This document shows, one piece after another, positions 1,298 through 11,611 of a DNA stretch of 44,226 nt (within the stretch, counting starts at the first letter, position 1; each line of letters opens with the position of its first letter). The stretch lies in the UHGV virus genome UHGV-0346409, one strand, 5' to 3'. The notes under the pieces are model-generated. The model searched no databases, was not told where the DNA came from, and saw nothing but the letters and a program-made list of their open reading frames with translations. The position numbers were made by a program, and so were the translations under genes. The DNA is from a virus.

Positions 1298-1512
1298 CAG
1301 ATTGCATCAAAATTTGGTTGTTCTTCTTCGGCAATCTGCACGGACCTTGCTCCGGACAGCGCAGCGTTTACATGCGTCCATGTGACGCGAGGTCGCCCAT
1401 CGCGGCGTTTTACATAAGAGATCCCGGCACGGGTCAGGGCGCCGCATTGTTTTGACGGGAACTGGTAGCCGGTCAGTTCAACCAGTTCCTCGTCGTTTAA
1501 CAGATCGTTCAT
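1297..1512 (-). CDS. DUF4224-like small DNA-binding protein in the excisionase position
   Basis: 71 aa. The motif LNDEELVELTGYQFPSKQ...GRPRV is typical of the DUF4224/Xis-like family. Its stop overlaps the int start. Confidence 0.65.
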   Translation of the reverse strand: MNDLLNDEELVELTGYQFPSKQCGALTRAGISYVKRRDGRPRVTWTHVNAALSGARSVQIAEEEQPNFDAI

Positions 1513-1702
1513 GGTCTTTCCTCATTATGTAGCTTATTGCGTCATCTGCCACATGGCAGGCACGGGCAATATCAGACTCGGTCAAGGCCTGTTTCCTGAC
1601 GCTGGCCGACAGTCGGCCAATTTTGATATCAAATGCGGAGAGCAGAGTTGCTCCCGGTTGCCATCGCAGCATTGTGATCCTCCTGTTACTGGTGAATCGC
1701 AA
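1478..1702 (-). CDS. Hypothetical early protein
   Basis: 74-aa ORF in the operon orientation. The 3' end overlaps the next gene start by 35 nt. No recognisable family. Confidence 0.35.
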   Translation of the reverse strand: MRFTSNRRITMLRWQPGATLLSAFDIKIGRLSASVRKQALTESDIARACHVADDAISYIMRKDHERSVKRRGTG

Positions 1703-1721
1703 TGCTAGCGATGGTGAGTTT

Positions 1722-1904
1722 TTATTTCTGATTAGGCGTAATCAGTTCTGGTGGGGGGAATGCCGATTTCTCCCGCGTGACCTTAATGTTTTCTGGCAGG
1801 TGTAGCCCAAGTTCGCAGCGACTCCGTGCTTCAATAATGCCATTGGTACCATCGGCAAGTACCAGGTGAACCGCGTCACCACGCTTTAATGTGAGTTTAA
1901 GCAT
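1722..1904 (-). CDS. Hypothetical early protein
   Basis: 60-aa ORF. Its ATG overlaps the upstream stop (TAATG), suggesting translational coupling. Confidence 0.45.
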   Translation of the reverse strand: MLKLTLKRGDAVHLVLADGTNGIIEARSRCELGLHLPENIKVTREKSAFPPPELITPNQK

Positions 1905-2473
1905 TAGCGTACCCTCAGCGAACGTTCGCCGCGTTCCAGATGTGCGCCTGGTACCGGGTTTAATAACTCGGCTGGTGGTGTTTCTCCACGCGCCAGTATT
2001 TCGGCGGCAACCGCCTCCGCAGATTCAATCACTTCTTTAATGGCTCGCTTGTTTGGTGTAATAACCGTTTCTACATCAACAAGTGACACGCCTTCATACT
2101 CATCCGGGATCTTATCTTTGCTATCGATAATTACCCGGATAGCCCCCTGTGCATCAGTAAATGTGTTTTTTGCGGTTTTTAGTTTATCCAGGCCAGCAGC
2201 TTGCAGGCAGGCGAGCATATGCTTCCGAATTGCTTTTTCCTTGCCTTCAAAGGACGTCTTACGGGTAGCCAGGCGAGACATTTCTTCAGCGCAGGTACTG
2301 GCATTGCCCTGTAAATTGCGGCAGATGACCATCATGGCGTCCAGTTTGTCTCCCAGTTCTCCTTCCATACCTTCAAGTGTGTCGGCGATCATCTCTGGCG
2401 TCAGTTCGTCGGAGGTTTCCAGCAGGTCAATCAGGCTGGCGTATTCTTTTGCAATAGCGATAGCGGTGCTCAT
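1904..2473 (-). CDS. Siphovirus Gp157-family protein
   Basis: 189 aa. The N-terminal E..L..LL...TLEGMEGE pattern and the C-terminal VPGAHLERGERSLRVR match the Gp157 family as I recall it. Confidence 0.8.
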   Translation of the reverse strand: MSTAIAIAKEYASLIDLLETSDELTPEMIADTLEGMEGELGDKLDAMMVICRNLQGNASTCAEEMSRLATRKTSFEGKEKAIRKHMLACLQAAGLDKLKTAKNTFTDAQGAIRVIIDSKDKIPDEYEGVSLVDVETVITPNKRAIKEVIESAEAVAAEILARGETPPAELLNPVPGAHLERGERSLRVR

Positions 2474-4692
2474 GCTGTTTGCTCCTGTGCGGCGGCGAGA
2501 GCGGCGAGGCGTTCGGTTTTGATTTCATTCAAACGGCGCAGGCGCGAACCAAGATAAGTTGAATACTCCTTATCACCTTTGGATTCTGCGGCTTTGCGGT
2601 GAACTTCTACTTCCCGCGCAATAAGGCCATAGACTTTATTAACTTCATTGGGGGTTACGGCTGCAGCCAGTGTTTTGGCAACACCTGAGAGTCGTTCATC
2701 CAGTTCTTCACGCAGTCGGGTAGCATCCTCTGCTTTCTCGCTTGCCTTCTTAATACCGTATTCTGTATTCAGCTCGGCGGTGTAGGCACTATCGTTATGC
2801 ATATCCATATAAACATCTGCCGCAAATCCCAGATGAGATAGTGCTTTGACGGTGGCATCAGTAAGAGACTTTTTGGAGGCCTCTTTTTCCATTACCAGTG
2901 CCCCTTTGTTATTTTTTGATATGTAATCCGTGTGGCCATATGACGGAATAAATCCTTTCACTCCGTTCCAGACGTACCAGAGATCTATCCGGATGGTGTG
3001 TACTGACAGGCAGAACAGGGAGCCGTCAGCATCCCTGACAGGTTTTTGTCCAATAATTTTCCCTGTCTGATCCTGTATAGGTTCAAGTAATGGCACACCG
3101 CGATCCACTCGCTCCTCCTTGATTTCAACTCCCCAACCAATGCCTTCCATTCCCAGCACTTCAGTCGCACGCATCAAAATATATTGTGCGCGTATGGAGT
3201 GCAGTCCTGCACCGTAATCATTATGTGTGACATACGCAGGATCGGTCCGCTGAACGCGATTCCAGATAGCCAAATTTGCTTTGCTCTGGTCATCATTCAT
3301 TGCTGACAGATAATGCTCCATGCGAATTGATGCAGTTTTTTCCTCGGTATGGATCCGCTCAACCAGAGCGTCAACGTTCTGCACCAGGTCTTTTACCTGC
3401 TCGCTAAGTTTTTCTTGTGGAGGAGTCTCTTCTTCCAGGATAACAGTTACAGATTCCCGCTGTGATACGGCGTTATTTTCTGGTACGCCATACACATGGC
3501 GGGGCGTGACAAACTGCTCACGCAACTGCTGCAAACTACGCTCTCCAGCATTTGCTGCTTCGCTTTTTTCGCCCTGATTTGAGGGGGGTTCTGACATCAT
3601 CCCATCGATTGAGAATCGCCCGCCGCCGTGGTTGGTGACTTTTACATCACCCTTTGGTGCTGCGTCCTTTGGCTTCTCTTCAACAGCATTTGCATCACGC
3701 TGCCCGTTAGCTTGCAGCCAGTTGTCGATGTGACTGCGCAGGGATTGCGGGAAATGGTACGTGTCTTTTGCGGGGGCACTCTGAACGACACCGAATACGG
3801 ATGCCCGGTCATAGGAAAGGATCTGATCCGTTGTGCGCAAGGCCATTGACCAGCGTTTAAAATCCTCCCGATCCTGGCTGATTATTTCGTCTGCCGCTTT
3901 CAGGACGCTGGGGGTGATTTTTTCCGGGCCAACGGGTAACAGAGCGCAGGCAATTTCACGATCCAGTGTAGCGTGAGTCTGTTTGTAAGGACGTGCGGAT
4001 GCTGTTTCTGGTTTTACCTCCGGCAGCATTTCATCGCGTTTACCGGGATTCTCTACCCATTTTTTTATAAATTTGGAGATAGTCCAACTGGTCGGGTTTT
4101 GTTCCTGGGTATCGCAACTTGCCAAAATTGCATGTACCAGATTATTCAATCCAGCAATATGCATGTACTCGATGGGCTTACACGCCACCATGGCATCAAG
4201 AACGATGCGGTTAAACGCGTCAACCTCATCCTCACTGTCAGTATCACTGTTGTCGAGCATCTCCAGGTATTCACGCGTCTGCGCAAGCAATTCACTGTTG
4301 ACTTCGTTGGCGTCGTGGCTGAACAGCAGAACGGCGGCGAATCGTTCACGAGCCGGCAGTTTCATCAGGTCGTTAACCTGTGCGATATCTGCTGAACCGC
4401 TATCTACAACGGGGGTGTTAACTACCCATTTTTCGCCATCAAAACTGTGTTCTGTGGCGAACGTCTCATCAAACTCACCAACGCCTGGGCGCGGTTGGCC
4501 CGGGGCATCTTCCCAGATTTTAGGTTTGAAATAGTTGTCGCCGTGGTCAGGGTAGGCTTCCCACAATTTGCCGATGATGATGTTCTCGGCAACTTTTTTG
4601 TTAGGGGCGTCGATGGCGATGGCCAGCGCCGGGATCGCGCCGTTTTTGAGCGCGCCTTTTTTCGCTTCTAACAAGCCGTTAAAAATGGTCAT
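2470..4692 (-). CDS. Large recombination-module protein; C-terminal Rad52/Sak-like single-strand-annealing domain, N-terminal two-thirds unassigned
   Basis: 740-aa ORF. The C-terminal segment ...IRAQYILMRATEVLGMEGIGWG...KKSLTDATVKALSHLGFAADVYM resembles the Rad52/Sak fold signature. ATGA overlap with the Gp157 gene. Confidence 0.6.
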   Translation of the reverse strand: MTIFNGLLEAKKGALKNGAIPALAIAIDAPNKKVAENIIIGKLWEAYPDHGDNYFKPKIWEDAPGQPRPGVGEFDETFATEHSFDGEKWVVNTPVVDSGSADIAQVNDLMKLPARERFAAVLLFSHDANEVNSELLAQTREYLEMLDNSDTDSEDEVDAFNRIVLDAMVACKPIEYMHIAGLNNLVHAILASCDTQEQNPTSWTISKFIKKWVENPGKRDEMLPEVKPETASARPYKQTHATLDREIACALLPVGPEKITPSVLKAADEIISQDREDFKRWSMALRTTDQILSYDRASVFGVVQSAPAKDTYHFPQSLRSHIDNWLQANGQRDANAVEEKPKDAAPKGDVKVTNHGGGRFSIDGMMSEPPSNQGEKSEAANAGERSLQQLREQFVTPRHVYGVPENNAVSQRESVTVILEEETPPQEKLSEQVKDLVQNVDALVERIHTEEKTASIRMEHYLSAMNDDQSKANLAIWNRVQRTDPAYVTHNDYGAGLHSIRAQYILMRATEVLGMEGIGWGVEIKEERVDRGVPLLEPIQDQTGKIIGQKPVRDADGSLFCLSVHTIRIDLWYVWNGVKGFIPSYGHTDYISKNNKGALVMEKEASKKSLTDATVKALSHLGFAADVYMDMHNDSAYTAELNTEYGIKKASEKAEDATRLREELDERLSGVAKTLAAAVTPNEVNKVYGLIAREVEVHRKAAESKGDKEYSTYLGSRLRRLNEIKTERLAALAAAQEQTA

Positions 4693-4722
4693 TGGTCTTT
4701 CCTCATTACAGGTCAGTGGTTT

Positions 4723-5043
4723 TTAGTAGGGGAGCTCATCGGTATCTGGCGTGTATTCGATGCAAAGTAACTGCTGGATTTTGTCATCGATAGCAGCAAT
4801 ACGCTGTTGAGCGTCGGCGGCTGTATTCTGTTTTTGCTCACGCAGCTGCTCGACCTGCAAACCGATGATGTCGATTGGCTGGGGCTGGTTGACGGTAATT
4901 TCAATTTCGCGGCTTTCCAGAAGGATGTACCTGTCTGGAAAATTTTTTGACATATCAACCGTCGCAATAAACAGCTTTTCATGGCTGAAAGTTGAAGTTG
5001 CATAATGAATAAAGAGTGTTACTGGGATGGTGCGCGCTTCCAT
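4723..5043 (-). CDS. Hypothetical early protein with coiled-coil-like C-terminus
   Basis: 106-aa ORF with AGGAG 6 nt upstream of the ATG. The overlapping 96-aa ORF (4713..5003) looks like a shadow frame. Confidence 0.55.
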   Translation of the reverse strand: MEARTIPVTLFIHYATSTFSHEKLFIATVDMSKNFPDRYILLESREIEITVNQPQPIDIIGLQVEQLREQKQNTAADAQQRIAAIDDKIQQLLCIEYTPDTDELPY

Positions 5044-5127
5044 AGCGACTCCTTGGTGATGTATACTCGGGACCGATCAGCGAATATTGATCAGCTTCCA
5101 TAGCGTCAGTGTCGTTGGTCTTTCCTC

Positions 5128-5151
5128 ATCACAAGTTTGGTCACTTGTGAT
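5128..5151. repeat. Perfect 9-bp inverted repeat ATCACAAGT-N6-ACTTGTGAT
   Basis: Read directly. It sits just beside a degenerate GAGGAAAGACC cassette. Confidence 0.6.
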
Positions 5152-5186
5152 AAATCCGAATGGTTTGGTCGCCGTTCGGGGTAACT

Positions 5187-5209
5187 GGCCCGCCTTGTGC
5201 GGGTCTTTT
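5187..5209 (+). terminator. Intrinsic-terminator-like hairpin oriented on the plus strand (antisense to the early-left leader)
   Basis: GGCCCGC-CTTGT-GCGGGTC followed by TTTTG on the plus strand. The minus-strand reading has no U tract. Confidence 0.4.
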
Positions 5210-5415
5210 GCTATCTAAAGGGTGCCGGTTACGTTTCCGGCGTCGTTATGTTTCCATCACGACCGTACGGGGCTGGTCTTTCCTGTTTTGAGCTGGTCAG
5301 GCTCATGGTCAACGCTGGTCAGGCGTGGTACTTCCTCCGGTCTTTCCCTGGTGTCACGCTGCGGGTTTGGCCTCTCCTGTTGGGGACTCAGGCACAGCGA
5401 TAAAACCTGGCTGTG

Positions 5416-5445
5416 TGAAAAAATGGCCCATCGTGCGGACTGGGC
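5416..5445 (-). terminator. Intrinsic terminator inside the early-left leader
   Basis: Minus strand reads GCCCAGTC-CGCAC-GATGGGC followed by CATTTTTTC. Confidence 0.55.
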
Positions 5446-5477
5446 AAAGACTAAACACAGCAAATTGATGATGGGCG

Positions 5478-5517
5478 CCCGGAATCGAACCGGGTAACGG
5501 GCAGGGAGTTCCCGTTA
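5478..5517 (-). ncRNA. Two abutting hairpins: 7-bp stem with 9-nt loop, then a tRNA T-arm-like CCCGG-TTCGATT-CCGGG
   Basis: Minus strand reads TAACGGG-AACTCCCTG-CCCGTTA followed directly by CCCGG-TTCGATT-CCGGG. No full cloverleaf can be drawn. Confidence 0.45.
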
Positions 5518-5891
5518 AACACCTGTTCACCACAACCGGGAGCGCACTCCGCCATTTCAAAATTTAACGACAAAGCTCAAAGTTGAGTCGATGAAGTGCG
5601 CTCTCGTGTTGTAGCCAGGACTCTTCCCTGGTGGTCACACCGTATCGCCTTGATGGTGAATCAATCGCTCATACCTGGCTGTGGCTTGCACATTCCGGCT
5701 ACCTGCTATGGAGACAACGCGTTAAGGCTCCGCTTCCATCCAGACCGCTTCGACACATGTGCCATATGCCGGCGAAGTCTTTCCCTCTGTCATCGTGTTG
5801 GCGCCGACGCGCAAAATTTGATGCCGTCTTTCCGGCTGTCAGAACGTGTTTCTGAACAACTGCCGCTGGGTAAGCGTTGTTGATGAAAGTG

Positions 5892-5920
5892 ACTTTACAA
5901 TTTGTATTTGTAATGGTCAA
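5892..5920 (-). promoter_or_regulatory. Candidate PL promoter with embedded operator (OL)
   Basis: Minus strand reads TTGACC-17 nt-TAAAGT. The 17-bp operator TACAATTTGTATTTGTA (5896..5912) sits between -35 and -10 and matches the OR operator consensus TACAA-N7-TTGTA. Confidence 0.55.
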
Positions 5921-6039
5921 CGTATTTTTAAAAAATAATTTGTAGTTAGGGGCAAAAAAATATTCACTGTGTAAAGGTGTTTTTGTGTTAGGGGGAAAGT
6001 TGCATGCCAGCAGCGGCTGGCCTGAAAATTTGAACTGAA

Positions 6040-6453
6040 CTATTTTGTCTGGTTTTTGGCTTCAAGTAGTTCTTTTAGCAGTAGATCGAAGTGCTCTCTT
6101 TTTTCTTTTAGCTCATTGATTAATTTATTTTTTTCGCTCTCAGGCAGTCCTCTGAATAGTTGCAGTAGAGCCTGTTCTTGCGGGGTTAGTTCTTGATTGT
6201 AATTACCCGGGTGTAGCGTGGATTCATCCAAATATTCCCCTTCATTCATGAAGAAAAAATGAACAGGGTATCCGGTCACTTTTGCTAGCTTGTCTAATTT
6301 ATCTTTTCTTGGAGTTACCCCATTACACCATGCCTGAACTGATTGAGCCGTAACCCCAATATGGCGAGCTAACTCAGATTGAGACCAGCCTAAGTCTTTT
6401 AGAATCCGTTGTAGTCGGCTAGCAAAAGCCATGTTTTTCGTTTTTGTGTTCAT
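6040..6453 (-). CDS. cI-like HTH_XRE prophage repressor, short form without S24/LexA-type peptidase domain
   Basis: HTH segment SQSELARHIGVTAQSVQAWCNG. Divergent from the cro-like gene. The ORF track begins at a TTG (6468); I prefer the ATG at 6453. The C-terminus is a short helical tail. Confidence 0.8.
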   Translation of the reverse strand: MNTKTKNMAFASRLQRILKDLGWSQSELARHIGVTAQSVQAWCNGVTPRKDKLDKLAKVTGYPVHFFFMNEGEYLDESTLHPGNYNQELTPQEQALLQLFRGLPESEKNKLINELKEKREHFDLLLKELLEAKNQTK

Positions 6454-6463
6454 ACCGTAAGGA

Positions 6464-6524
6464 TACAAGGTTTAATTGTAGGGATCATTGCAAATATAAT
6501 TTGTAATTACAGTTATGATTTGTA
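6464..6524. promoter_or_regulatory. OR region: three 17-bp operators (6464..6480, 6489..6505, 6508..6524) overlapping divergent PR and PRM candidates
   Basis: TACAAGGTTTAATTGTA, TGCAAATATAATTTGTA and TACAGTTATGATTTGTA. On the plus strand, TATAAT at 6495..6500 (PR -10). On the minus strand, TACAAT at 6480..6475 (PRM -10). Confidence 0.6.
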
Positions 6525-6551
6525 ATGATGGCGCGGACACAAGGAGTCCAT

Positions 6552-6782
6552 ATGGATAAACAACTGCAAGACAAAATTCTTTCCGTAATGAGTCAATCCG
6601 AGTTAGGGCGGCGATTAGGGAAAAAACCACAAACGGTAAGCCTCTGGTTCAAAGGAAGGGTTCCCGGTGAAGAGGTTTTGCGCACATCTGAAGCTCTTGA
6701 ATGGCGCGTGACCCCCCATGATCTTAGACCGGATCTTTACCCAAACCCAGATGACAGCTTGCCTAAAACGAAAGCAGCTTAA
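6552..6782 (+). CDS. Cro/YdaS-like small HTH regulator
   Basis: AAGGAG lies 6 nt upstream of the ATG at 6552. The sequence SQSELGRRLGKKPQTVSLWFKG...VTPHDLRPDLYP resembles the YdaS family. Confidence 0.75.
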   Translation: MDKQLQDKILSVMSQSELGRRLGKKPQTVSLWFKGRVPGEEVLRTSEALEWRVTPHDLRPDLYPNPDDSLPKTKAA

Positions 6783-6840
6783 CTGTTGGTGAGCCCCAAA
6801 TCTGATTAAGCGTAATCAATTTTTAGCGACAGGAGACGCT

Positions 6841-7317
6841 ATGGAAAACCAAGAGGAATTACAAAAAGAGATTTTGACCTGGGCGGCAAGGGCAGGGCAG
6901 GAACTCGTCACGATTGAAATCTGCCGGGCCTAGTTCAGTCAGGGACGCAATGATGAGTTGAGACTACATGAATTTGAGGACGCGGACGGCAATGTGGACT
7001 GGAGAGCCATCAACAACAATCGGCAGAAAATCTTTCGCTGGTTACGTGGCGAGACAACGGCGGCGCGCCGAAAAACTCAGGTGCTGGCCAGTGTGATGAA
7101 AGCCGTGCTACCCGCAGAACGGCGGGCACGTCTGGAGTCGCCGGGCGATCCCGTTTTGCTGGCAACGCTGGCGGCAAAAGAAGGGGTGGAAGCGATTAAC
7201 GCTGTACATCTCCACTTCGCGCCAGAGTTAACTATCCAGGAAATTGACGAAGCAATAGCGGCGCTGGTAGCGACGCGAGGAGCAGTGATACGCACTGCGC
7301 AAGACCACCATGCATGA
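6841..7317 (+). pseudogene. ydaT/CII-like regulator interrupted by an in-frame amber (TAG 6931..6933)
   Basis: ATG 6841 has a strong AGGAG RBS and 30 codons run up to the TAG. The same frame continues into ORF 6958..7317. KIFRWLRGET and VLPAERRARL match my recollection of Rac YdaT. Confidence 0.7.
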
Positions 7318-7356
7318 GCGCCTGACCAGCGTTTAACTTATACCGAGGAAAGACCG

Positions 7357-7581
7357 ATGTTAAGACATATTGACCGCATTACCTGGCGTAACGGCTGGCA
7401 CCTGAATGGGCGCCCGGCACATGTTGCAGAGATCCAACCTATTTTTGATGGGCGTATGGCTGCCGCGCTTTCGGTGTGGGAGCAGTATGAATCCAGGAAG
7501 GTCGAGTTGCGCGACAAAGGGCTGAGCAATGCGGACTATGAAGCCGGTTGTCGTCAGATAGCCGAAGCTCTGGAGATCTGA
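7357..7581 (+). CDS. Hypothetical early-right protein
   Basis: 74-aa ORF preceded by the conserved GAGGAAAGACCGATG cassette. Confidence 0.5.
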   Translation: MLRHIDRITWRNGWHLNGRPAHVAEIQPIFDGRMAAALSVWEQYESRKVELRDKGLSNADYEAGCRQIAEALEI

Positions 7582-7583
7582 GT

Positions 7584-8648
7584 ATGAGTCGTTTGCTGAT
7601 TAACGAAAACCCCCTTCAGGTCCTGCCCACGTTGGCATGCACTATAGGGTTGAATGAAGCCATCGTTCTACAGCAAATCCACTACTGGCTGAATTCATCT
7701 CAAAATTTCTTCGAAAATCGCCACTGGGTGTACAACAGTGTGACCGATTGGCAAGAACAATTCCCGTTCTGGAGCGAGTCGACAATAAAACGCGTGCTGG
7801 CCAATCTGGAAAAATTGAATGTGGTATTTACTGGGAACTTTAACAGTGATGCCTGGGATAAAACCAAGTGGTATTCAATCAATTATGCCCAGTTATGTAA
7901 GATTGAAGAGACAACATTCCCTGTGGCCAATCGATTAGGTCAAGTTGACCCAATCGAAGAGGTCAATGTGACCCAAGCATCAGGTCAAGTTGACCCATGC
8001 GCTAAGGTCAAAATGACCCAATCTCTTACAGAGAATACAACAGAGAGTACTACAGAGATAAAAGATCCCCCTTACCCCCAAAAGGGGGAGGGCGAGGAAA
8101 TCATTCTCGCTGACGCTCAAAAAGCTCTGAACTACTACAACGAGAAAGTCGGTACACGCTGCCGCGATGTTAAACCGTTTGTCATGCTGCTGACTGCCAC
8201 CACCACCCGCGCTGGTTACAGCGTGGCTGAGATTCAGTTAGTAATTCGTTGGGTTATTGCGACATGGCGCCGTCGTAGCGGAAGCGTGCCGAAACCTGCG
8301 AACATTTGCCGCGTAAACCGGTTTGACGGATATCTGGCTGACGCTGAGGCGTGGGCCACTGCTGAGGCTGCCGTTGACCCTGCTGAAGTTGTGAAGAGCT
8401 ACAACGAGATTCTGGGCGACCTGCTACCTATAGCTGAAATTGATACTGACCGCCGTCGGGCAATCCTGCGCCTGCTGGCACATATGCGCACGCAAACTCT
8501 TGGCGCATTTATCGGCTACTTCGAAAAATTCCGCGATAACGCCCCAGACTTCTATTTCGGCGGCGAATATCGCACCGGCTGGCGGGCAGGGTTTGATTAC
8601 CTGATGAAGCCAGAAACACTGCGTAAAACCAGGGAAGGGGCATTATGA
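7584..8648 (+). CDS. Replication initiator (lambda O-like position; conserved phage C-terminal domain)
   Basis: The N-terminal region is like phage replisome organisers and there are internal iterons. The C-terminal segment YYNEKVGTRCRD...VIRWVIATW resembles the conserved phage C-terminus family. Start chosen at MSRLLINE. Confidence 0.72.
   Translation: MSRLLINENPLQVLPTLACTIGLNEAIVLQQIHYWLNSSQNFFENRHWVYNSVTDWQEQFPFWSESTIKRVLANLEKLNVVFTGNFNSDAWDKTKWYSINYAQLCKIEETTFPVANRLGQVDPIEEVNVTQASGQVDPCAKVKMTQSLTENTTESTTEIKDPPYPQKGEGEEIILADAQKALNYYNEKVGTRCRDVKPFVMLLTATTTRAGYSVAEIQLVIRWVIATWRRRSGSVPKPANICRVNRFDGYLADAEAWATAEAAVDPAEVVKSYNEILGDLLPIAEIDTDRRRAILRLLAHMRTQTLGAFIGYFEKFRDNAPDFYFGGEYRTGWRAGFDYLMKPETLRKTREGAL
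7938..8020. repeat. Candidate ori: four iterons GGTCAANNTGACCCA at 7938, 7961, 7983 and 8006
   Basis: Read directly. Spacing is 22-23 bp, each iteron is internally palindromic, and an A/T-rich tract follows. The arrangement is like lambda ori inside gene O. Confidence 0.7.
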
Positions 8649-10036
8649 ATCCAGAAGAACTGGAAGCGATCGTTCTCGCTGGTCTGATTAACGGTGGCGC
8701 GACGCCTGACGCGTTTGATGTGATTGCCACTACTCCGGAGGAAGCCTTCAGCATCGTGTTTCACCGTCGCGCTTTCAGCGAAATCAAAAAGCAGGCACTG
8801 GCGAACGGCATGATCGACATGTTGTTTATCAGCGAAGCGCTGGGCGGTTCCAGCCTTGCGGATCTGTCTCAAATATCCCGGATCCCGGCAACGGTACCGA
8901 ATCTGAAAGGCTATGCCGGGAAAATGGTGCGGGCATGGCGGAGCCGCAAAATGGCGGCATTGTTGCAATCTGGCGCGGATGGTATCCGTAACGCTGTAAA
9001 CCAGAGTCAGCGTGATGAGGTTATTGAATCTCATGTTGCTCAGGTGCTGGATATGAGCGCCGCTACCGGCACAGTCCAGCCGGTACACATCAAAGAGCTG
9101 TTACCGCTCTACATTGACACCGTTGATAAACGGATGTCTGGTGACGCGCAGGAAATGATGCTGAAAACCGGAGTCGAGGATCTGGATGTCGCCCTGGGCG
9201 GTATCAACATGACCGATCTTGTTGTGGTTGCCGGTCGTCCAGGCATGGGGAAAACGGAATTTACCCTGAAGATTATCGATGGCGTTACCGCAGATGGCGG
9301 CGGCGCACTGTTTTTCAGCATGGAAATGGGCGCTCAGCAGATTGTTGAACGTACCGTTGCCGGGGCTGGGAATATGTCAACGTCGCGTCTGCGTAATCCA
9401 AAAGAAATGGACGATGAGGATTTGACCAGATTAACCGCCGCGCTTGCAATCATGCAGGATCGCGATATCTGGATTGTTGATGCCACTGATTTGACGATTG
9501 AGCAGATCCGCGCCATTGCAGAGACTCATAAACGCCGTTATCCGCACCTGAAGTTGATTGGTGTTGATTACATGGGCCTGATCAAAAAACCGAAGGCCGA
9601 GCGCCACGATCTCGCTGTCGGGCATATCTCCCGCAACATGAAGACTATGGCCATGCGTCTGCATACCCCTGTTTTTGCTCTTAGCCAGCTTTCCCGCCAG
9701 GTGGATTCTCGACCTGCTGGCCAGCGTCGCCCGGTGATGTCGGACCTGCGCGATTCCGGCAGTGTTGAGCAGGACGCTGACAGCATTTTGTTTTTGTACC
9801 GCGATGAAGTTTACACACCTGATTCACCTGCAAAGGGTATCGCCGAGGTGATTATCGGTAAAAACCGTTCTGGCGGGGCAGGTGAAATTATTTATCAGGA
9901 ATTCCGGAATGGGCATTTCCTGCCAATTGATCAACACGTAGCACGCGAAAAAATACGCATCCAGAAGGAGGCAGAGCAACCGAGAAAACGTGAAAAACGG
10001 TATTCAAACAAAAACTTTAATACGGACCCATTTTAA
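8645..10036 (+). CDS. DnaB-family replicative helicase
   Basis: Walker A GRPGMGKTEF, plus SMEM, ALSQLSRQVDSR and IIGKNRSG motifs. ATGA overlap with the initiator gene. Confidence 0.9.
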   Translation: MNPEELEAIVLAGLINGGATPDAFDVIATTPEEAFSIVFHRRAFSEIKKQALANGMIDMLFISEALGGSSLADLSQISRIPATVPNLKGYAGKMVRAWRSRKMAALLQSGADGIRNAVNQSQRDEVIESHVAQVLDMSAATGTVQPVHIKELLPLYIDTVDKRMSGDAQEMMLKTGVEDLDVALGGINMTDLVVVAGRPGMGKTEFTLKIIDGVTADGGGALFFSMEMGAQQIVERTVAGAGNMSTSRLRNPKEMDDEDLTRLTAALAIMQDRDIWIVDATDLTIEQIRAIAETHKRRYPHLKLIGVDYMGLIKKPKAERHDLAVGHISRNMKTMAMRLHTPVFALSQLSRQVDSRPAGQRRPVMSDLRDSGSVEQDADSILFLYRDEVYTPDSPAKGIAEVIIGKNRSGGAGEIIYQEFRNGHFLPIDQHVAREKIRIQKEAEQPRKREKRYSNKNFNTDPF

Positions 10037-10074
10037 CCACGCATGACCAGCGTGAAATAACCGAGGAAAGACCA

Positions 10075-10476
10075 ATGACCCAATTAATTAACCACACGAG
10101 TGCACACTATAGTGACGACGGTAAAAACTACCTGGATTCAATTCTGTGGCACATGAACGCAGCCGCGCGAGCACGTACCCGCTCGACATATTGCCCGCCA
10201 CCTAAAAACACTGACGTTGTGGTAATTGCAAAACCTGAGCACGTAGCAGTTATTCGCCCGGCAGAAATAACCTCAGGGACCGCCAAAACACATACCGGCG
10301 TTGTTATTAAAAATACTGGTGAGCGCACAGTAAAACTCCGCGAAACAGCGACTGCGTGGTCTGCGGGTGTAAGGGAGAACTACGATAAAAAAACAGGTTA
10401 CCGCTTAGGCGCATCAGGCAGCACCCGGTTGTTACTCGACACCGTGAAGCCCATCAGGAAGAAGGGCAAAAAATAA
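10075..10476 (+). CDS. Hypothetical protein
   Basis: 133-aa ORF preceded by GAGGAAAGACCAATG. Confidence 0.55.
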   Translation: MTQLINHTSAHYSDDGKNYLDSILWHMNAAARARTRSTYCPPPKNTDVVVIAKPEHVAVIRPAEITSGTAKTHTGVVIKNTGERTVKLRETATAWSAGVRENYDKKTGYRLGASGSTRLLLDTVKPIRKKGKK

Positions 10477-11375: not shown

Positions 11376-11412
11376 GCAGCCGCAAAATCGGTTGCCGGGA
11401 TTTGCACCCCGG
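11376..11412 (+). promoter_or_regulatory. Two abutting hairpins upstream of the terminator (GCAGCCG-CAAAAT-CGGTTGC, then CCGGG-loop-CCCGG)
   Basis: Read directly. The geometry resembles the pair at 5478..5517. Confidence 0.4.
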
Positions 11413-11431
11413 ATATCTAAAAGGCGACAAC

Positions 11432-11451
11432 GACGCGCCAGCGTCTTTTTT
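11432..11451 (+). terminator. Intrinsic terminator closing the replication/nin operon
   Basis: GACGC-GCCA-GCGTC followed by TTTTTT. Confidence 0.65.
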
Positions 11452-11611
11452 ATTGTCGTGCGCACAGCCACATCCGCGATTTATGGTGGGGCGTGTAGGG
11501 GAGTCGAAAGGCTCGCCGGGTCCTTTTAGCCGGTAGTGCAAACCCTGCATGTCTCACCACCCAAAGATTTGCACCTGAGGGGGGTGATTATCCGACTAAA
11601 AGGAAATCGCT

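What the first reader, a model, noticed from the sequence alone, without database searches (positions are those of the whole stretch)
1509..10078. Recurrent GAGGAAAGACC(N)ATG cassette at early gene starts, with degenerate copies in the leader
Four early genes on both strands start with nearly the same 15-19 nt:
- 1524..1509: TAATGAGGAAAGACCATG
- 4709..4690: TAATGAGGAAAGACCAATG
- 7344..7359: CGAGGAAAGACCGATG
- 10059..10077: CCGAGGAAAGACCAATG

The core GGAAAGAC recurs five more times, exactly, on the minus strand within the ORF-free leader. The plus-strand GTCTTTCC copies lie at about 5118, 5276, 5340, 5777 and 5827. An 8-mer is expected far less than once in 800 nt.

The copy at 5133..5110 reads GAGGAAAGACCAACG, which is the cassette with ATG changed to ACG. 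The cassette may be a module-junction sequence used for mosaic recombination, a specialised translation-initiation region, or a binding motif. The leader copies argue either for eroded gene starts or for a titration or standby function.
Basis: seen in the sequence. Interest (0 to 1): 0.5.

Follow-up and report, generated by a model that had tools for sequence, protein, structure and literature searches.

The report
Shared gene-start tag matching antisense RNA
Several early genes of this E. coli prophage begin with the same short ribosome-binding "tag", and the phage also appears to encode a small antisense RNA carrying the tag's exact complement, which suggests one RNA that can switch a whole set of early genes off (inferred from sequence only, not tested).

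Summary
GGAAAGAC occurs 9 times in the window against 1.2 expected. All nine lie in 1.5-10.1 kb and all point the way the local genes are transcribed.

It is part of a larger unit: a small GC hairpin with loop (C/A)UGACCA, a 10-16 nt spacer, then GAGGAAAGACC(A)(A)AUG. In the leftward-promoter (PL) leader the 8-mer instead sits in the loop of small hairpins whose stems covary.

About 100 related prophage loci keep the motif letter for letter, even where the exonuclease protein has fallen to 40% identity.

The new finding is on the opposite (+) strand, at about 5072-5212. There is a conserved -10 box, three helices that pair well only on that strand, and an intrinsic terminator. This predicted ~140-nt RNA carries UUGGUCUUUCCUC, the exact complement of the cassette, and its loops (UUGGUC) complement the hairpin loops.

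Best reading, at confidence about 0.45: the cassette is a shared address for this antisense RNA, which would repress the tagged early genes, and the leader copies are extra target or decoy sites. The cassettes also mark insertion and homology boundaries.

The closest known parallel is the start-associated sequences of cluster K mycobacteriophages, whose function is still unknown. No expression data exist for this element.

The parts
1510..1527 (-). Gene-start cassette TAATGAGGAAAGACCATG before the excisionase-like gene (DUF4224; ATG at 1512). It lies inside the 3' end of the upstream 63-aa ORF.
   Evidence: predicted seed duplex -27.7 kcal/mol
4690..4720 (-). Gene-start cassette TAATGAGGAAAGACCAATG before the 740-aa exonuclease gene (ATG 4692). 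A degenerate CUGACCU element lies upstream. In relatives a full upstream hairpin (called hairpin A in this report) occupies this place.
   Evidence: predicted seed duplex -36.9 kcal/mol
7315..7359 (+). Full intercistronic unit. Hairpin A runs 7315-7335 (UGAGCGC-CUGACCA-GCGUUUA) and starts on the stop codon of the YdaT-like gene. A 9-nt spacer follows, then CGAGGAAAGACCGATG before the 74-aa gene.
10038..10077 (+). Full intercistronic unit. Hairpin A runs 10038-10054 (CACGC-AUGACCA-GCGUG), just after the stop codon of the DnaB-like helicase gene. A spacer follows, then CCGAGGAAAGACCAATG before the 133-aa gene.
5823..5836 (-). Leader hairpin B1: GCCG-GAAAGA-CGGC. The 8-mer supplies the closing G-C pair and the loop.
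   Evidence: Orthologous stems covary: GCCCG/CGGGC, GUCCG/CGGGC, GUCUG/CAGAC.
5774..5787 (-). Leader hairpin B2: GAGG-GAAAGA-CUUC. Relatives read UGCGG/CCGCA or UGCGG/CUGCA.
5276..5347 (-). Leader repeat block: GGGAAAGACCGG (5340-5347), hairpin A copies at 5312-5326 and 5289-5305 (loops CUGACCA), and CAGGAAAGACC (5276-5285).
5113..5127 (-). Last leader copy, GAGGAAAGACCAACG, with no usable start codon in the window. It is a near-duplicate of the exonuclease gene start (88% identity over 26 nt). On the + strand it is the proposed seed of the antisense RNA.
5062..5067 (+). Conserved -10-like box TATACT on the strand antisense to the leader. There is no good -35 element.
   Evidence: TATACT in 61 loci, TATAAT in 22. 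The promoter scan did not call it.
5072..5212 (+). Predicted antisense small RNA of about 140 nt. In order it holds a 5' hairpin, a 7-nt linker UUUCCUC, hairpin hp2 (5128-5151, loop UUGGUC), hairpin hp3 (about 5155-5179, loop UUUGGUC), and an intrinsic terminator (5187-5205 plus a U-run). The full complement of the cassette, CGUUGGUCUUUCCUC, spans 5113-5127; its GUUGGUC part is the 3' arm of the 5' hairpin.
5892..5920 (-). PL-like early-left promoter (TTGACC, 17 nt, TAAAGT). The conserved leader begins at its predicted start site.
5416..5466 (-). Intrinsic terminator inside the leader, preceded by a sequence resembling the 3' part of the host small RNA RprA.
5470..5771 (-). Inserted modules that are not part of the cassette system. 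One is a 170-nt structured element (5600-5771) shared with unrelated phages. The other is a tRNA-like T-arm and acceptor remnant (5470-5550).

Best explanation
**What the cassette is.** It is the 3' half of a stereotyped intercistronic unit in the early mRNAs of a family of Rac-like lambdoid prophages. The unit has three parts. First comes a short GC hairpin, placed on or just after the upstream stop codon, with the seven-base loop (C/A)UGACCA. Then comes a 10-16 nt A/U-rich spacer. Last comes GAGGAAAGACC(A)(A)AUG, often followed by ACC. The GAGG serves as the Shine-Dalgarno sequence.

**Why the rest of the word is frozen.** I propose it is the address of a phage-encoded antisense small RNA. 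That RNA would be transcribed from the + strand at about 5072-5212, opposite the last 140 nt of the PL leader. It would start at a conserved TATACT box and end at an intrinsic terminator. The RNA carries (C)RUUGGUCUUUCCUC, the exact complement of the cassette through the start codon. In the predicted fold the UUUCCUC part is an unpaired linker and the UUGGUC part is held in the 5' hairpin. Two further hairpins have UUGGUC loops that complement the UGACCA loops.

**How it would work.** Loop-loop contact followed by seed pairing would cover the SD and AUG of every tagged gene: the excisionase-like gene, the exonuclease, the 74-aa gene and the 133-aa gene in this window. That would repress their translation. 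Pairing in cis with the PL leader would lower expression of the leftward operon.

The PL leader also carries 4-8 further copies of the two motifs displayed in hairpin loops. These would act either as decoys that soak up the RNA once PL fires, or as sites through which the RNA controls the terminator inside the leader.

**Side effect.** Because the cassettes are identical everywhere, they also serve as crossover points at which genes are inserted or swapped.

**Shown:** the motif, the bipartite unit, the hairpins, their conservation, the strand-specific structure and terminator on the + strand, and the complementarity.

**Inferred:** that the + strand is transcribed from that box, that the RNA acts in trans, the direction of the effect, and the role of the leader copies.
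For: **Enrichment and orientation**
- 9 copies against 1.24 expected, all pointing with transcription.

**The larger unit**
- Recurs at the same gene junctions in about 20 relatives.
- Hairpin A: 78.7% of cells paired against 61.4% in shuffles, and covariation score 0.377 against 0.147; no shuffle of 500 reached either value.
- Leader copies form hairpins (58.5% paired against 47.4%, 0 of 500). Gene-start copies do not (36.1% against 36.3%).

**Invariance**
- 76 loci encode exonuclease relatives. In those that cover the whole protein, identities run from 100% down to 40%, GAGGAAAGACC is kept before the gene, and 6-10 co-oriented copies are present. The twelve weakest, domain-only matches lack the motif.
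- The 72%-identical leader of phage BUCT708 keeps the copies.

**Antisense RNA**
- A + strand terminator is present at 5187-5205. Some relatives have a different hairpin plus T-run at the same place.
- The -10 box reads TATACT in 61 loci and TATAAT in 22.
- RNAalifold predicts three helices. 97.6% of cells pair, 13 of 25 pairs show compensatory changes, no shuffle of 500 matches, and slid controls give 39-50%.
- Strand asymmetry: two of the helices have 31 and 42 G-U pairs and 2 mismatches each on the + strand, but 33 and 43 mismatches on the sense strand.
- Consensus energy is -33.4 kcal/mol on the + strand against -18.8 on the sense strand. Mean folding energy is -62 against -48 to -50 kcal/mol, with the + strand more stable in 34 of 34 unique sequences.
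- TGGTCTTTCCT is invariant in the 15-sequence alignment of this RNA.

**Targeting**
- The seed region forms predicted duplexes of -36.9, -31.4, -27.7 and -26.7 kcal/mol with the four tagged starts. Across 209 ORF starts the median is -11.4 and the next best is -21.3.

**Context**
- The same prophage carries isrK and C4 antisense-RNA genes, so RNA-based control is already in its repertoire.

**Boundaries**
- Homology with relatives starts or stops at 4704-4707, 7317, 10080-10089 and 1503-1510.
- An extra gene in L105 is bracketed by two hairpin-plus-cassette units.
Against: - No expression data exist. The promoter rests on a -10 box alone: there is no -35 element and the scanner did not call it.
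- The box overlaps a palindromic GTATAC next to the first gene's ribosome-binding site, so its conservation could serve the sense strand.
- The complementarity to the cassettes follows automatically from an antisense transcript crossing a leader copy. It does not by itself prove action in trans.
- The motif never varies, so the decisive test (seed and targets changing together) could not be made.
- Part of the seed (UUGGUC) is predicted to be paired in the RNA's own 5' hairpin.
- G-U counts do not tell which strand the pooled A and B hairpins fold on.
- In relatives with the GCCCACC-type hairpin, the terminator may work in both directions.
- An invariant host factor would explain the frozen sequence just as well.
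Confidence: 0.45

Rival explanations
1. The unit is a purely cis-acting expression cassette with no dedicated partner. It combines a very efficient ribosome-binding site (GAGG, an A-rich spacer, AUG ACC) with an upstream stabiliser hairpin and an A/U-rich linker for RNase E processing. It spreads between genes by recombination. The leader copies would load ribosomes or provide structure that protects the long untranslated leader from Rho.
For: - The SD core and fixed spacing are present.
- The hairpin sits right after stop codons and is followed by an A/U-rich linker.
- Other early genes share a second stereotyped site, AAGGAGUC..AUGGA.
- The long untranslated leader would need protection from Rho (inference).
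Against: - Ribosome binding needs only GAGG. It does not explain the invariance of AAAGACC or of the UGACC loop across proteins that are 40% identical.
- Leader hairpin copies lack GAGG and a start codon.
- Small ORFs after leader copies are not conserved in frame or in presence.
- It leaves the + strand structure and terminator unexplained.
Confidence: 0.2
2. The 8-mer and the UGACCA loop are binding sites for an RNA-binding protein, host or phage. Candidates are a translational repressor in the style of CsrA or T4 RegA, or an N-like antiterminator recognising boxB-like hairpins. The leader array would act as a protein sponge or as a loading platform.
For: - The motif is kept both in loops and in linear form.
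- A hairpin upstream plus a site over the SD is the CsrA arrangement (from memory).
- The hairpin loops resemble boxB of lambda, P22 and phage 21 (from memory, not tested).
- B1 and B2 lie between PL and a terminator.
Against: - No arginine-rich N-like ORF lies in the early region.
- The co-occurring small proteins have no Pfam match.
- The first gene looks recombination-related rather than RNA-binding.
- No boxA was seen in the leader on reading it.
- CsrA needs only GGA, and in the leader hairpins the first G is paired.
- A perfectly complementary RNA partner is encoded on the spot.
Confidence: 0.15
3. The cassettes exist mainly as recombination linkers. They are short identical sequences at gene boundaries that let the phage's own recombinase shuffle modules. 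The leader array would be debris left by such events.
For: - Homology breakpoints fall at the cassettes.
- The insertion in L105 is flanked by two units, with the junction inside the cassette.
- Divergent genes follow the same cassette.
- The phage encodes an exonuclease and a Gp157-family protein.
Against: - BLAST segments end at any conserved island, so the breakpoints are expected under every model.
- 11-15 identical bases are short for homologous recombination.
- The idea does not explain co-orientation with transcription, covarying stems with conserved loops, the orthologous conservation of B1 and B2, or the antisense RNA structure.
Confidence: 0.1
4. The leader copies are eroded starts of lost genes and have no present function.
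For: - The copy at 5113-5127 is 88% identical over 26 nt to the exonuclease gene start, with ATG changed to ACG.
- Some relatives have an ATG and a short ORF at that place.
Against: - The copies keep their position across leaders that are 72% identical.
- The stems of B1 and B2 covary.
- The short ORFs differ in frame and length.
- The motif is invariant where the surrounding sequence is not.
Confidence: 0.05

Closest known systems
[quoted passage not shown] 2011, PMC3203893; survey of 188 genomes in 2025, PMC12699233)
   Same: - An asymmetric, highly conserved motif of about 13 nt contains the Shine-Dalgarno core.
- It lies a few nt before the start codons (mostly ATG) of a subset of genes.
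- It occurs only in the non-structural part of the genome and in one orientation.
- It is nearly absent from the host.
- About half the copies are preceded by an inverted repeat.
- It is conserved in front of genes of different families.
- The authors left open whether a host or phage RNA or protein binds it. The function was still untested in 2025.
   Different: - The sequence differs: GGGATAGGAGCCC there, GAGGAAAGACC here. The host phylum differs too.
- Here the upstream inverted repeat is a short hairpin with a conserved loop and covarying stems. Pope et al. found little support for an RNA hairpin.
- Here extra copies are clustered in a promoter-proximal leader.
- Here a complementary antisense RNA gene can be pointed to.
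P1/P7 C4 antisense RNA and P4 CI RNA immunity systems (Rfam RF01695; described from memory)
   Same: - A small structured phage RNA has exposed sequences complementary to short target sequences.
- The targets are repeated in the leader of an early operon and at a ribosome-binding site.
- Pairing blocks translation or causes early termination.
- This window has its own C4 homologue at 11479-11564.
   Different: - C4 and CI are cut out of the same sense transcript that they control.
- The RNA proposed here is encoded antisense, with its own -10 box and terminator.
- It has no match to RF01695 or any other Rfam family.
- Its targets would lie on both divergent early operons.
Cis-encoded antisense RNAs of lambdoid phages (lambda OOP against cII, P22 sar against ant; from memory) and U-turn (YUNR) recognition loops of antisense systems
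   Same: - A short terminator-ended RNA is encoded opposite an early transcript in the immunity or early region.
- The hairpin loops CUGA.. and UUGG.. fit the YUNR pattern used for fast loop-loop contact.
   Different: OOP and sar have a single cis target. Here the same target sequence is copied to at least four gene starts and several leader sites.
RNA sponges and target mimics (for example the prophage anti-sRNA AgvB; from memory)
   Same: An RNA carrying copies of a target sequence could titrate a base-pairing regulator.
   Different: The decoys would be in the 5' leader of the regulated operon itself, in multiple copies displayed in hairpin loops. This role is not demonstrated.
Lambda-type nut sites (boxA plus boxB with N protein) and HK022 put RNA (PMC9378689)
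   Same: Small hairpins with purine-rich or UGAC-containing loops lie just downstream of PL and upstream of a terminator.
   Different: - No N-like protein or boxA was found.
- The hairpins occur many times and at gene junctions.
- put RNA is a 70-nt structure of two long stems that binds RNA polymerase and has no sequence resemblance.

Membership tests
Start-associated sequences (cluster K mycobacteriophage SAS/ESAS) | A conserved asymmetric motif containing an SD core lies within a few nt of the start codons of a subset of genes | tested here: met
   49 distinct gene-start copies have ATG 1-4 nt after GGAAAGAC, and GAGGAAAGACC is nearly invariant.
Start-associated sequences (cluster K mycobacteriophage SAS/ESAS) | Restricted to non-structural genes, in a single orientation relative to transcription, and rare in host DNA | tested here: met
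   All 9 copies lie in 1.5-10.1 kb and none in the other 34 kb. All are co-oriented with transcription. Background is about 0.05 per kb. A full E. coli chromosome was not scanned.
Start-associated sequences (cluster K mycobacteriophage SAS/ESAS) | Consensus 5'-GGGATAGGAGCCC with at most 2 mismatches (Pope et al. criterion) | tested here: not met
   The motif here is GAGGAAAGACC (criterion). This is an analogue, not a member.
Start-associated sequences (cluster K mycobacteriophage SAS/ESAS) | An inverted repeat lies immediately upstream of about half the copies | tested here: met
   Hairpin A lies 10-16 nt upstream. Here it is a 4-7 bp stem with a conserved 7-nt loop and covariation, unlike the 17-bp ESAS repeats.
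Cis-encoded antisense small RNA gene | Own promoter on the antisense strand | tested here: inconclusive
   A -10 box (TATACT or TATAAT) is conserved in 83 loci. There is no -35 element and the scanner made no call.
Cis-encoded antisense small RNA gene | Intrinsic terminator on the antisense strand | tested here: met
   A stem plus TTTT lies at 5187-5205 on the + strand. Relatives have an alternative hairpin with a T6-7 run.
Cis-encoded antisense small RNA gene | Conserved secondary structure specific to the antisense strand | tested here: met
   97.6% of cells are paired and 13 of 25 pairs are compensatory. G-U pairs on the + strand correspond to A-C mismatches on the sense strand. The + strand is more stable in 34 of 34 sequences.
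Cis-encoded antisense small RNA gene | A detectable transcript | not testable with these tools
   No RNA data are available.
C4 antisense RNA (RF01695) | Match to the covariance model at the gathering score | tested here: not met
   No C4 hit falls in 4690-6060 even at E up to 10. A separate, true C4 lies at 11479-11564.
Lambda-type N/nut antitermination | A phage N protein with an arginine-rich motif | tested here: not met
   No arginine-rich ORF lies in the early region. The early proteins carry no such annotation.
Lambda-type N/nut antitermination | A boxA element upstream of a boxB hairpin | tested here: not met
   No GCUCUUUA-like element was seen in the conserved leader on reading it. 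The boxA consensus was recalled from memory.
RprA (RF00034) | Score at or above the gathering threshold of 70 bits | tested here: not met
   The score is 37.4 bits, E 0.015. Only the 3' half matches.
CsrA binding sites | A GGA motif presented in a hairpin loop and over the SD | tested here: inconclusive
   GGA is present, but its first G is the closing base pair in the leader hairpins. The invariant AAAGAC is not a CsrA requirement (from memory).

The most novel reading that the evidence does not exclude
A temperate-phage family tags a regulon of early genes on both divergent operons with one frozen 11-15-nt ribosome-binding address plus a recognition hairpin. A single antisense small RNA reads all of them. 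The promoter-proximal leader carries an array of the same address as a built-in decoy, giving a threshold switch between silence and full early expression.

The address and the RNA are identical in relatives that have different repressor and operator regions. A resident prophage would therefore also silence superinfecting relatives of different repressor immunity. That would be an RNA layer of cross-immunity.

The same logic could explain the mycobacteriophage start-associated sequences, where several genomes carry one copy in reverse orientation that is tied to no gene.
Probability: 0.3. Interest if true: 0.8.

Novelty: new variant of a known kind. Interest (0 to 1): 0.62.

Why it matters
- **An open question becomes testable.** Start-associated sequences have been known in mycobacteriophages since 2011 without a mechanism. 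This is an equivalent in E. coli prophages, present in 482 of 5,426 complete genomes and also in Serratia, where genetics is easy. A concrete candidate reader, an antisense small RNA, is encoded next to it.
- **A new control mode, if confirmed.** One RNA would repress recombination, excision and replication-associated genes through a shared tag, possibly with a leader-borne decoy array and cross-immunity between phages of different repressor immunity.
- **Mosaic evolution.** It would also show how identical regulatory tags double as crossover points in mosaic phage evolution.
- **Practical use.** The tag and RNA could serve as a compact tool for translational control of several genes at once.

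Tried and rejected
- **N/boxB antitermination.** The hairpin loops recall boxB (from memory), but no arginine-rich protein and no boxA were found. The hairpins also occur at many gene junctions.
- **HK022-type put RNA.** It has a different size and architecture and no similarity.
- **Known RNA families.** Rfam at the gathering score and at E up to 10 gives nothing for the leader or the antisense RNA, apart from a weak 3'-half match to RprA.
- **Small ORFs after leader copies.** They are not conserved in frame or in presence.
- **DNA iterons or protein arrays on one helix face.** The spacing between GAC triplets peaks at 13 nt, not at about 10.5.
- **RNA-binding function for the co-occurring small proteins.** None has a Pfam match. 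The first gene looks recombination-related.
- **Mimicry of ribosomal RNA.** GGAAAGACC equals 23S rRNA 2056-2064, the A2058 site (papers found). GAGGAAAGUCC is a conserved RNase P RNA element (from memory). I treat both as probable coincidences, because the match does not extend and no binding partner follows from it.
- **The RprA-like segment as the reader of the motif.** Its GUCUUUGCC pairs with the 8-mer only with a bulge, and the relatives' GUCUUGGCC pairs worse.
- **Full-length duplex folding of the RNA against gene starts.** It did not discriminate. A 30-nt seed window did.
- **Scan of one genome per species for the 15-mer.** It only added two Serratia carriers.
- **Literature.** No paper holds the cassette or seed strings. 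The mEp021 group of Nus-dependent phages is a different phage type.
- **Covariation between seed and targets.** It could not be tested because the motif never varies.

Full report
**Setting.** The window is a lambdoid, Rac-like prophage of E. coli integrated beside tRNA-Ser(CGA) at 94-183.
- Leftward genes: integrase (269-1297), an excisionase-like DUF4224 gene (ATG 1512), small ORFs, a Gp157-family gene, a 740-aa exonuclease gene (ATG 4692) and a 106-aa first gene (ATG 5043).
- Regulatory centre: an 840-nt ORF-poor leader, a PL-like promoter (5920-5892, minus strand) and a CI-like repressor gene.
- Rightward genes: a Cro/YdaS-like gene, a YdaT-like gene, a 74-aa gene (7357), replication genes, and a 133-aa gene (10075).
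- The region 4690-6050 is at least 95% identical in nearly all of 482 matching genomes out of 5,426 complete E. coli genomes.

**Observation.**
- GGAAAGAC occurs 9 times against 1.24 expected, with no shuffle of 100 reaching 9. GAGGAAAGACC with at most one mismatch occurs 6 times against 0.44 expected.
- Every copy lies in 1.5-10.1 kb and points with local transcription. The remaining 34 kb has none.
- One-mismatch variants are not enriched.
- Four copies sit 1-2 nt before the ATG of real genes, and five lie in the leader.

**The motif is half of a bigger unit.** I fetched about 20 relatives by scanning IMG/VR for GAGGAAAGACCNATG. Each holds 5-13 copies, clustered in the leader and at the same gene starts on both operons. 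Tabulating 139 distinct contexts showed three things.
- At gene junctions a GC-rich hairpin with loop (C/A)UGACC(A/U), here called hairpin A, sits on or just after the upstream stop codon. A 10-16 nt A/U-rich spacer follows, then GAGGAAAGACC(A)(A)ATG, often followed by ACC.
- Hairpin A stems change in a compensatory way: GCGC/GCGC, GAGC/GCUC, GGGC/GCCC, CACGC/GCGUG, GGCGC/GCGCC. I picked loops only by the TGACC core and by nearness to the 8-mer. On that set 78.7% of stem cells pair against 61.4% in shuffles, and the covariation score is 0.377 against 0.147. No shuffle of 500 reached either value, and slid registers give 16-46%.
- In the leader the 8-mer is itself a hairpin, stem-G[GAAAGA]C-stem, here called hairpin B. 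Orthologous stems covary: B1 reads GCCG/CGGC, GCCCG/CGGGC, GUCCG/CGGGC or GUCUG/CAGAC, and B2 reads GAGG/CUUC, UGCGG/CCGCA or UGCGG/CUGCA. Non-gene-start copies pair at 58.5% against 47.4% in shuffles (0 of 500). Gene-start copies show no hairpin (36.1% against 36.3%).

**Conservation.**
- The leader of phage BUCT708 is 72% identical to the window's, yet keeps the copies in place.
- A protein-based search found 76 loci that encode exonuclease relatives. In those that cover the whole protein, identities run from 100% down to 40%, all keep hairpin A plus GAGGAAAGACC before the gene, and all hold 6-10 co-oriented copies. The twelve weakest, domain-only matches lack the motif.
- The leader begins to be conserved exactly at the predicted PL start site. 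The operator region upstream differs between relatives, which points to different immunities.
- Two Serratia genomes carry the system.
- The exact word is therefore under very strong constraint, and the leader copies are not debris.

**The leader is modular.**
- Short leaders (279-480 nt; L051, L106, L062) contain a 5' multi-hairpin module with B1 and B2, an intrinsic terminator, an array of A and B units, two longer hairpins with GACCAA loops, a last SD-type copy, and then the first gene.
- The window's leader also carries a 170-nt structured element (5600-5771) and a tRNA-like remnant (5470-5550). Many relatives lack both.

**An RNA gene on the opposite strand.** On the + strand at 5187-5205, a stem followed by a T-run forms an intrinsic terminator pointing against the leader. 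Some relatives have a different hairpin with a run of 6-7 T at the same place. About 125 nt upstream on that strand, all 83 loci examined carry TATACT (61 loci) or TATAAT (22 loci), even where the flanks differ.

Between the box and the terminator, RNAalifold on 15 distinct sequences predicts three helices: a 5' hairpin, hp2 with loop UUGGUC, and hp3 with loop UUUGGUC.
- Counted on the alignment, 97.6% of cells pair and 13 of 25 pairs have changes on both sides. No shuffle of 500 reaches this, and slid registers give 39-50%.
- The structure belongs to the + strand. The 5' hairpin and hp3 hold 31 and 42 G-U pairs with 2 mismatches each on the + strand. The same columns read on the sense strand give 33 and 43 mismatches.
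- Consensus energy is -33.4 kcal/mol on the + strand against -18.8 on the sense strand. Mean single-sequence energy is about -62 against -48 to -50 kcal/mol, and the + strand is the more stable in 34 of 34 unique sequences.
- No Rfam family matches.

I conclude that a ~120-140-nt antisense RNA, at window 5072-5212 on the + strand, is very likely a real gene. Transcription itself is not shown, and the promoter rests on a -10 box only.

**The link to the finding.**
- Between the 5' hairpin and hp2 this RNA reads (C)RUUGGUCUUUCCUC. TGGTCTTTCCT is invariant in the alignment.
- That is the exact complement of GAGGAAAGACCAAYG, that is, of the cassette through the start codon.
The G opposite the U of AUG simply makes a wobble pair.
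- In the predicted fold UUUCCUC is unpaired, and UUGGUC is held in the 5' hairpin.
- A 30-nt seed window forms predicted duplexes of -36.9, -31.4, -27.7 and -26.7 kcal/mol with the exonuclease, 133-aa, excisionase-like and 74-aa starts. Across 209 ORF starts in the window the median is -11.4 and the next best is -21.3.
- The two UUGGUC loops complement the UGACCA loops of hairpin A. Both loop types fit the Y-U-N-R pattern used for fast loop-loop contact in antisense systems (from memory).
- Each gene junction (hairpin A, spacer, cassette) is therefore a shortened copy of the RNA's own perfect cis target (GACCAA-loop hairpins followed by the cassette).

**Mechanism proposed (inferred).**
- The cassette is a shared address. 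The RNA docks by loop-loop contact and pairs over the SD and AUG, repressing translation of the tagged early genes on both operons.
- In cis it pairs with the end of the PL leader.
- The other leader copies display the same two motifs in loops. They could titrate the RNA when PL fires, giving a threshold. Alternatively they could be the sites through which the RNA promotes termination at the terminator inside the leader, as in P4 immunity (from memory).
- The direction of the effect and the role of the leader copies are not established.
- A frozen multi-copy address explains the invariance. So would an invariant host factor, and because the motif never varies the covariation test that would decide between them could not be made.

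**Recombination.**
- Homology between the window and its relatives repeatedly begins or ends at 4704-4707, 7317, 10080-10089 and 1503-1510.
- In L105 an extra gene sits between the first gene and the exonuclease gene. It is bracketed by two hairpin-plus-cassette units, and the junction is inside the cassette.
- The cassettes therefore coincide with mosaic boundaries. BLAST segments would end at any conserved island, so I treat this as a plausible consequence of the cassettes being identical, not as their reason for existing.

**Comparison with known systems.**
- The closest phenomenon is the SAS/ESAS of cluster K mycobacteriophages. These are a 13-bp asymmetric motif with an SD core, 3-7 bp before the starts of a subset of non-structural genes, in one orientation, absent from the host, and half of them preceded by inverted repeats. 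The binding partner is unknown and the function was still untested in 2025.
- The present element meets the general features but not the sequence definition. It adds a covarying hairpin, a leader array and a candidate antisense reader.
- Mechanistically it resembles the P1 C4 and P4 CI RNA systems and lambda OOP or P22 sar. It differs in being encoded antisense and in having many targets.
- It is not a nut or put system.
- No paper in the library contains the cassette or seed strings.

**Verdict.** The element is an SAS-like start-associated tag with a strongly supported, previously undescribed antisense RNA gene that carries its complement. Regulation in trans is a well-motivated inference, at confidence about 0.45, that simple experiments can test.

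Noticed in passing
window 5416-5466 (-); relatives L053, L058, L050, L105: The PL leader contains a copy of the 3' part of the host small RNA RprA (37.4 bits, below the 70-bit threshold). Relatives read AUUGCUGUGUGUAGUCUUUGCC, which matches the Rfam consensus letter for letter. An intrinsic terminator follows, and its stem covaries between relatives. In short leaders it ends a transcript of about 130 nt from PL, so early termination could yield an RprA-like small RNA, as described for StxS (PMC7547250).
   Followed up: partly
window 5600-5771 (-); L001 2501-2672, L004 1501-1672, L005, L006, L007, L008, L009, L002, L010: A ~170-nt non-coding element is 70-77% identical in unrelated phages. In Uetakevirus phages (SPN1S, Tyrion, PAT1, BUCT554) it lies between the terminase and portal genes. 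It also occurs in P1-like phages D6, SJ46 and Ro157c2YLVW and in Klebsiella phages, sometimes beside tRNA genes. It folds better on the leader-sense strand in 12 of 12 sequences and has blocks such as GGUAGCCGGAAUGUGCAAGCC. It has no Rfam match and may be an undescribed phage RNA family.
   Followed up: partly
window 5470-5550 (-): A tRNA-like remnant (GGUUCGAUUCCGG T-arm plus an acceptor end; 19 bits to the tRNA-Sec model; not called by ARAGORN) follows the 170-nt element. It is present in the window, L089 and L029 and absent from BUCT708-type leaders.
   Followed up: partly
window 6932: The YdaT-like gene (6841-7317) carries a nonsense change, TGG to TAG (W31 to stop), relative to strain TUM11353, whose leader region (4690-6050) is 100% identical to the window's. 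This copy of the prophage may be defective in that function.
   Followed up: yes
window 4723-5043 (-) and homologues in about 20 loci: The first gene of the leftward operon (PHROG family 2479, no Pfam match) ends in ...ESDIPF or ...ENDVPF in relatives and ...DELPY in the window. This resembles the C-terminal tail of E. coli SSB (DDDIPF, from memory). It may be a mimic that engages SSB-binding proteins.
   Followed up: no
window 11376-11451 and 11479-11564 (+): isrK (76 bits) and C4 antisense RNA (74 bits) genes lie just upstream of an ORF6N/antirepressor-like gene. This is a P1-type RNA immunity module inside the rightward operon.
   Followed up: no
window 5043-5056, 6541-6554, 6829-6843: The first gene, the cro-like gene and the YdaT-like gene share a second stereotyped ribosome-binding region: AAGGAGUCGCUAUGGA, AAGGAGUCCAUAUGGA and CAGGAGACGCUAUGGA.
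   Followed up: no
the motif itself: GGAAAGACC is identical to E. coli 23S rRNA 2056-2064, the A2058 site for macrolides, Erm methylation and TLR13 (papers found). It is one base away from the conserved GAGGAAAGUCC of RNase P RNA (from memory). This is probably coincidence.
   Followed up: partly
L053 1078-1091 and GCCCACC-type relatives: In some relatives the hairpin that ends the antisense RNA has an A-run on one side and a U-rich tail on the other. It may terminate transcription in both directions. In the window it is antisense-only.
   Followed up: partly
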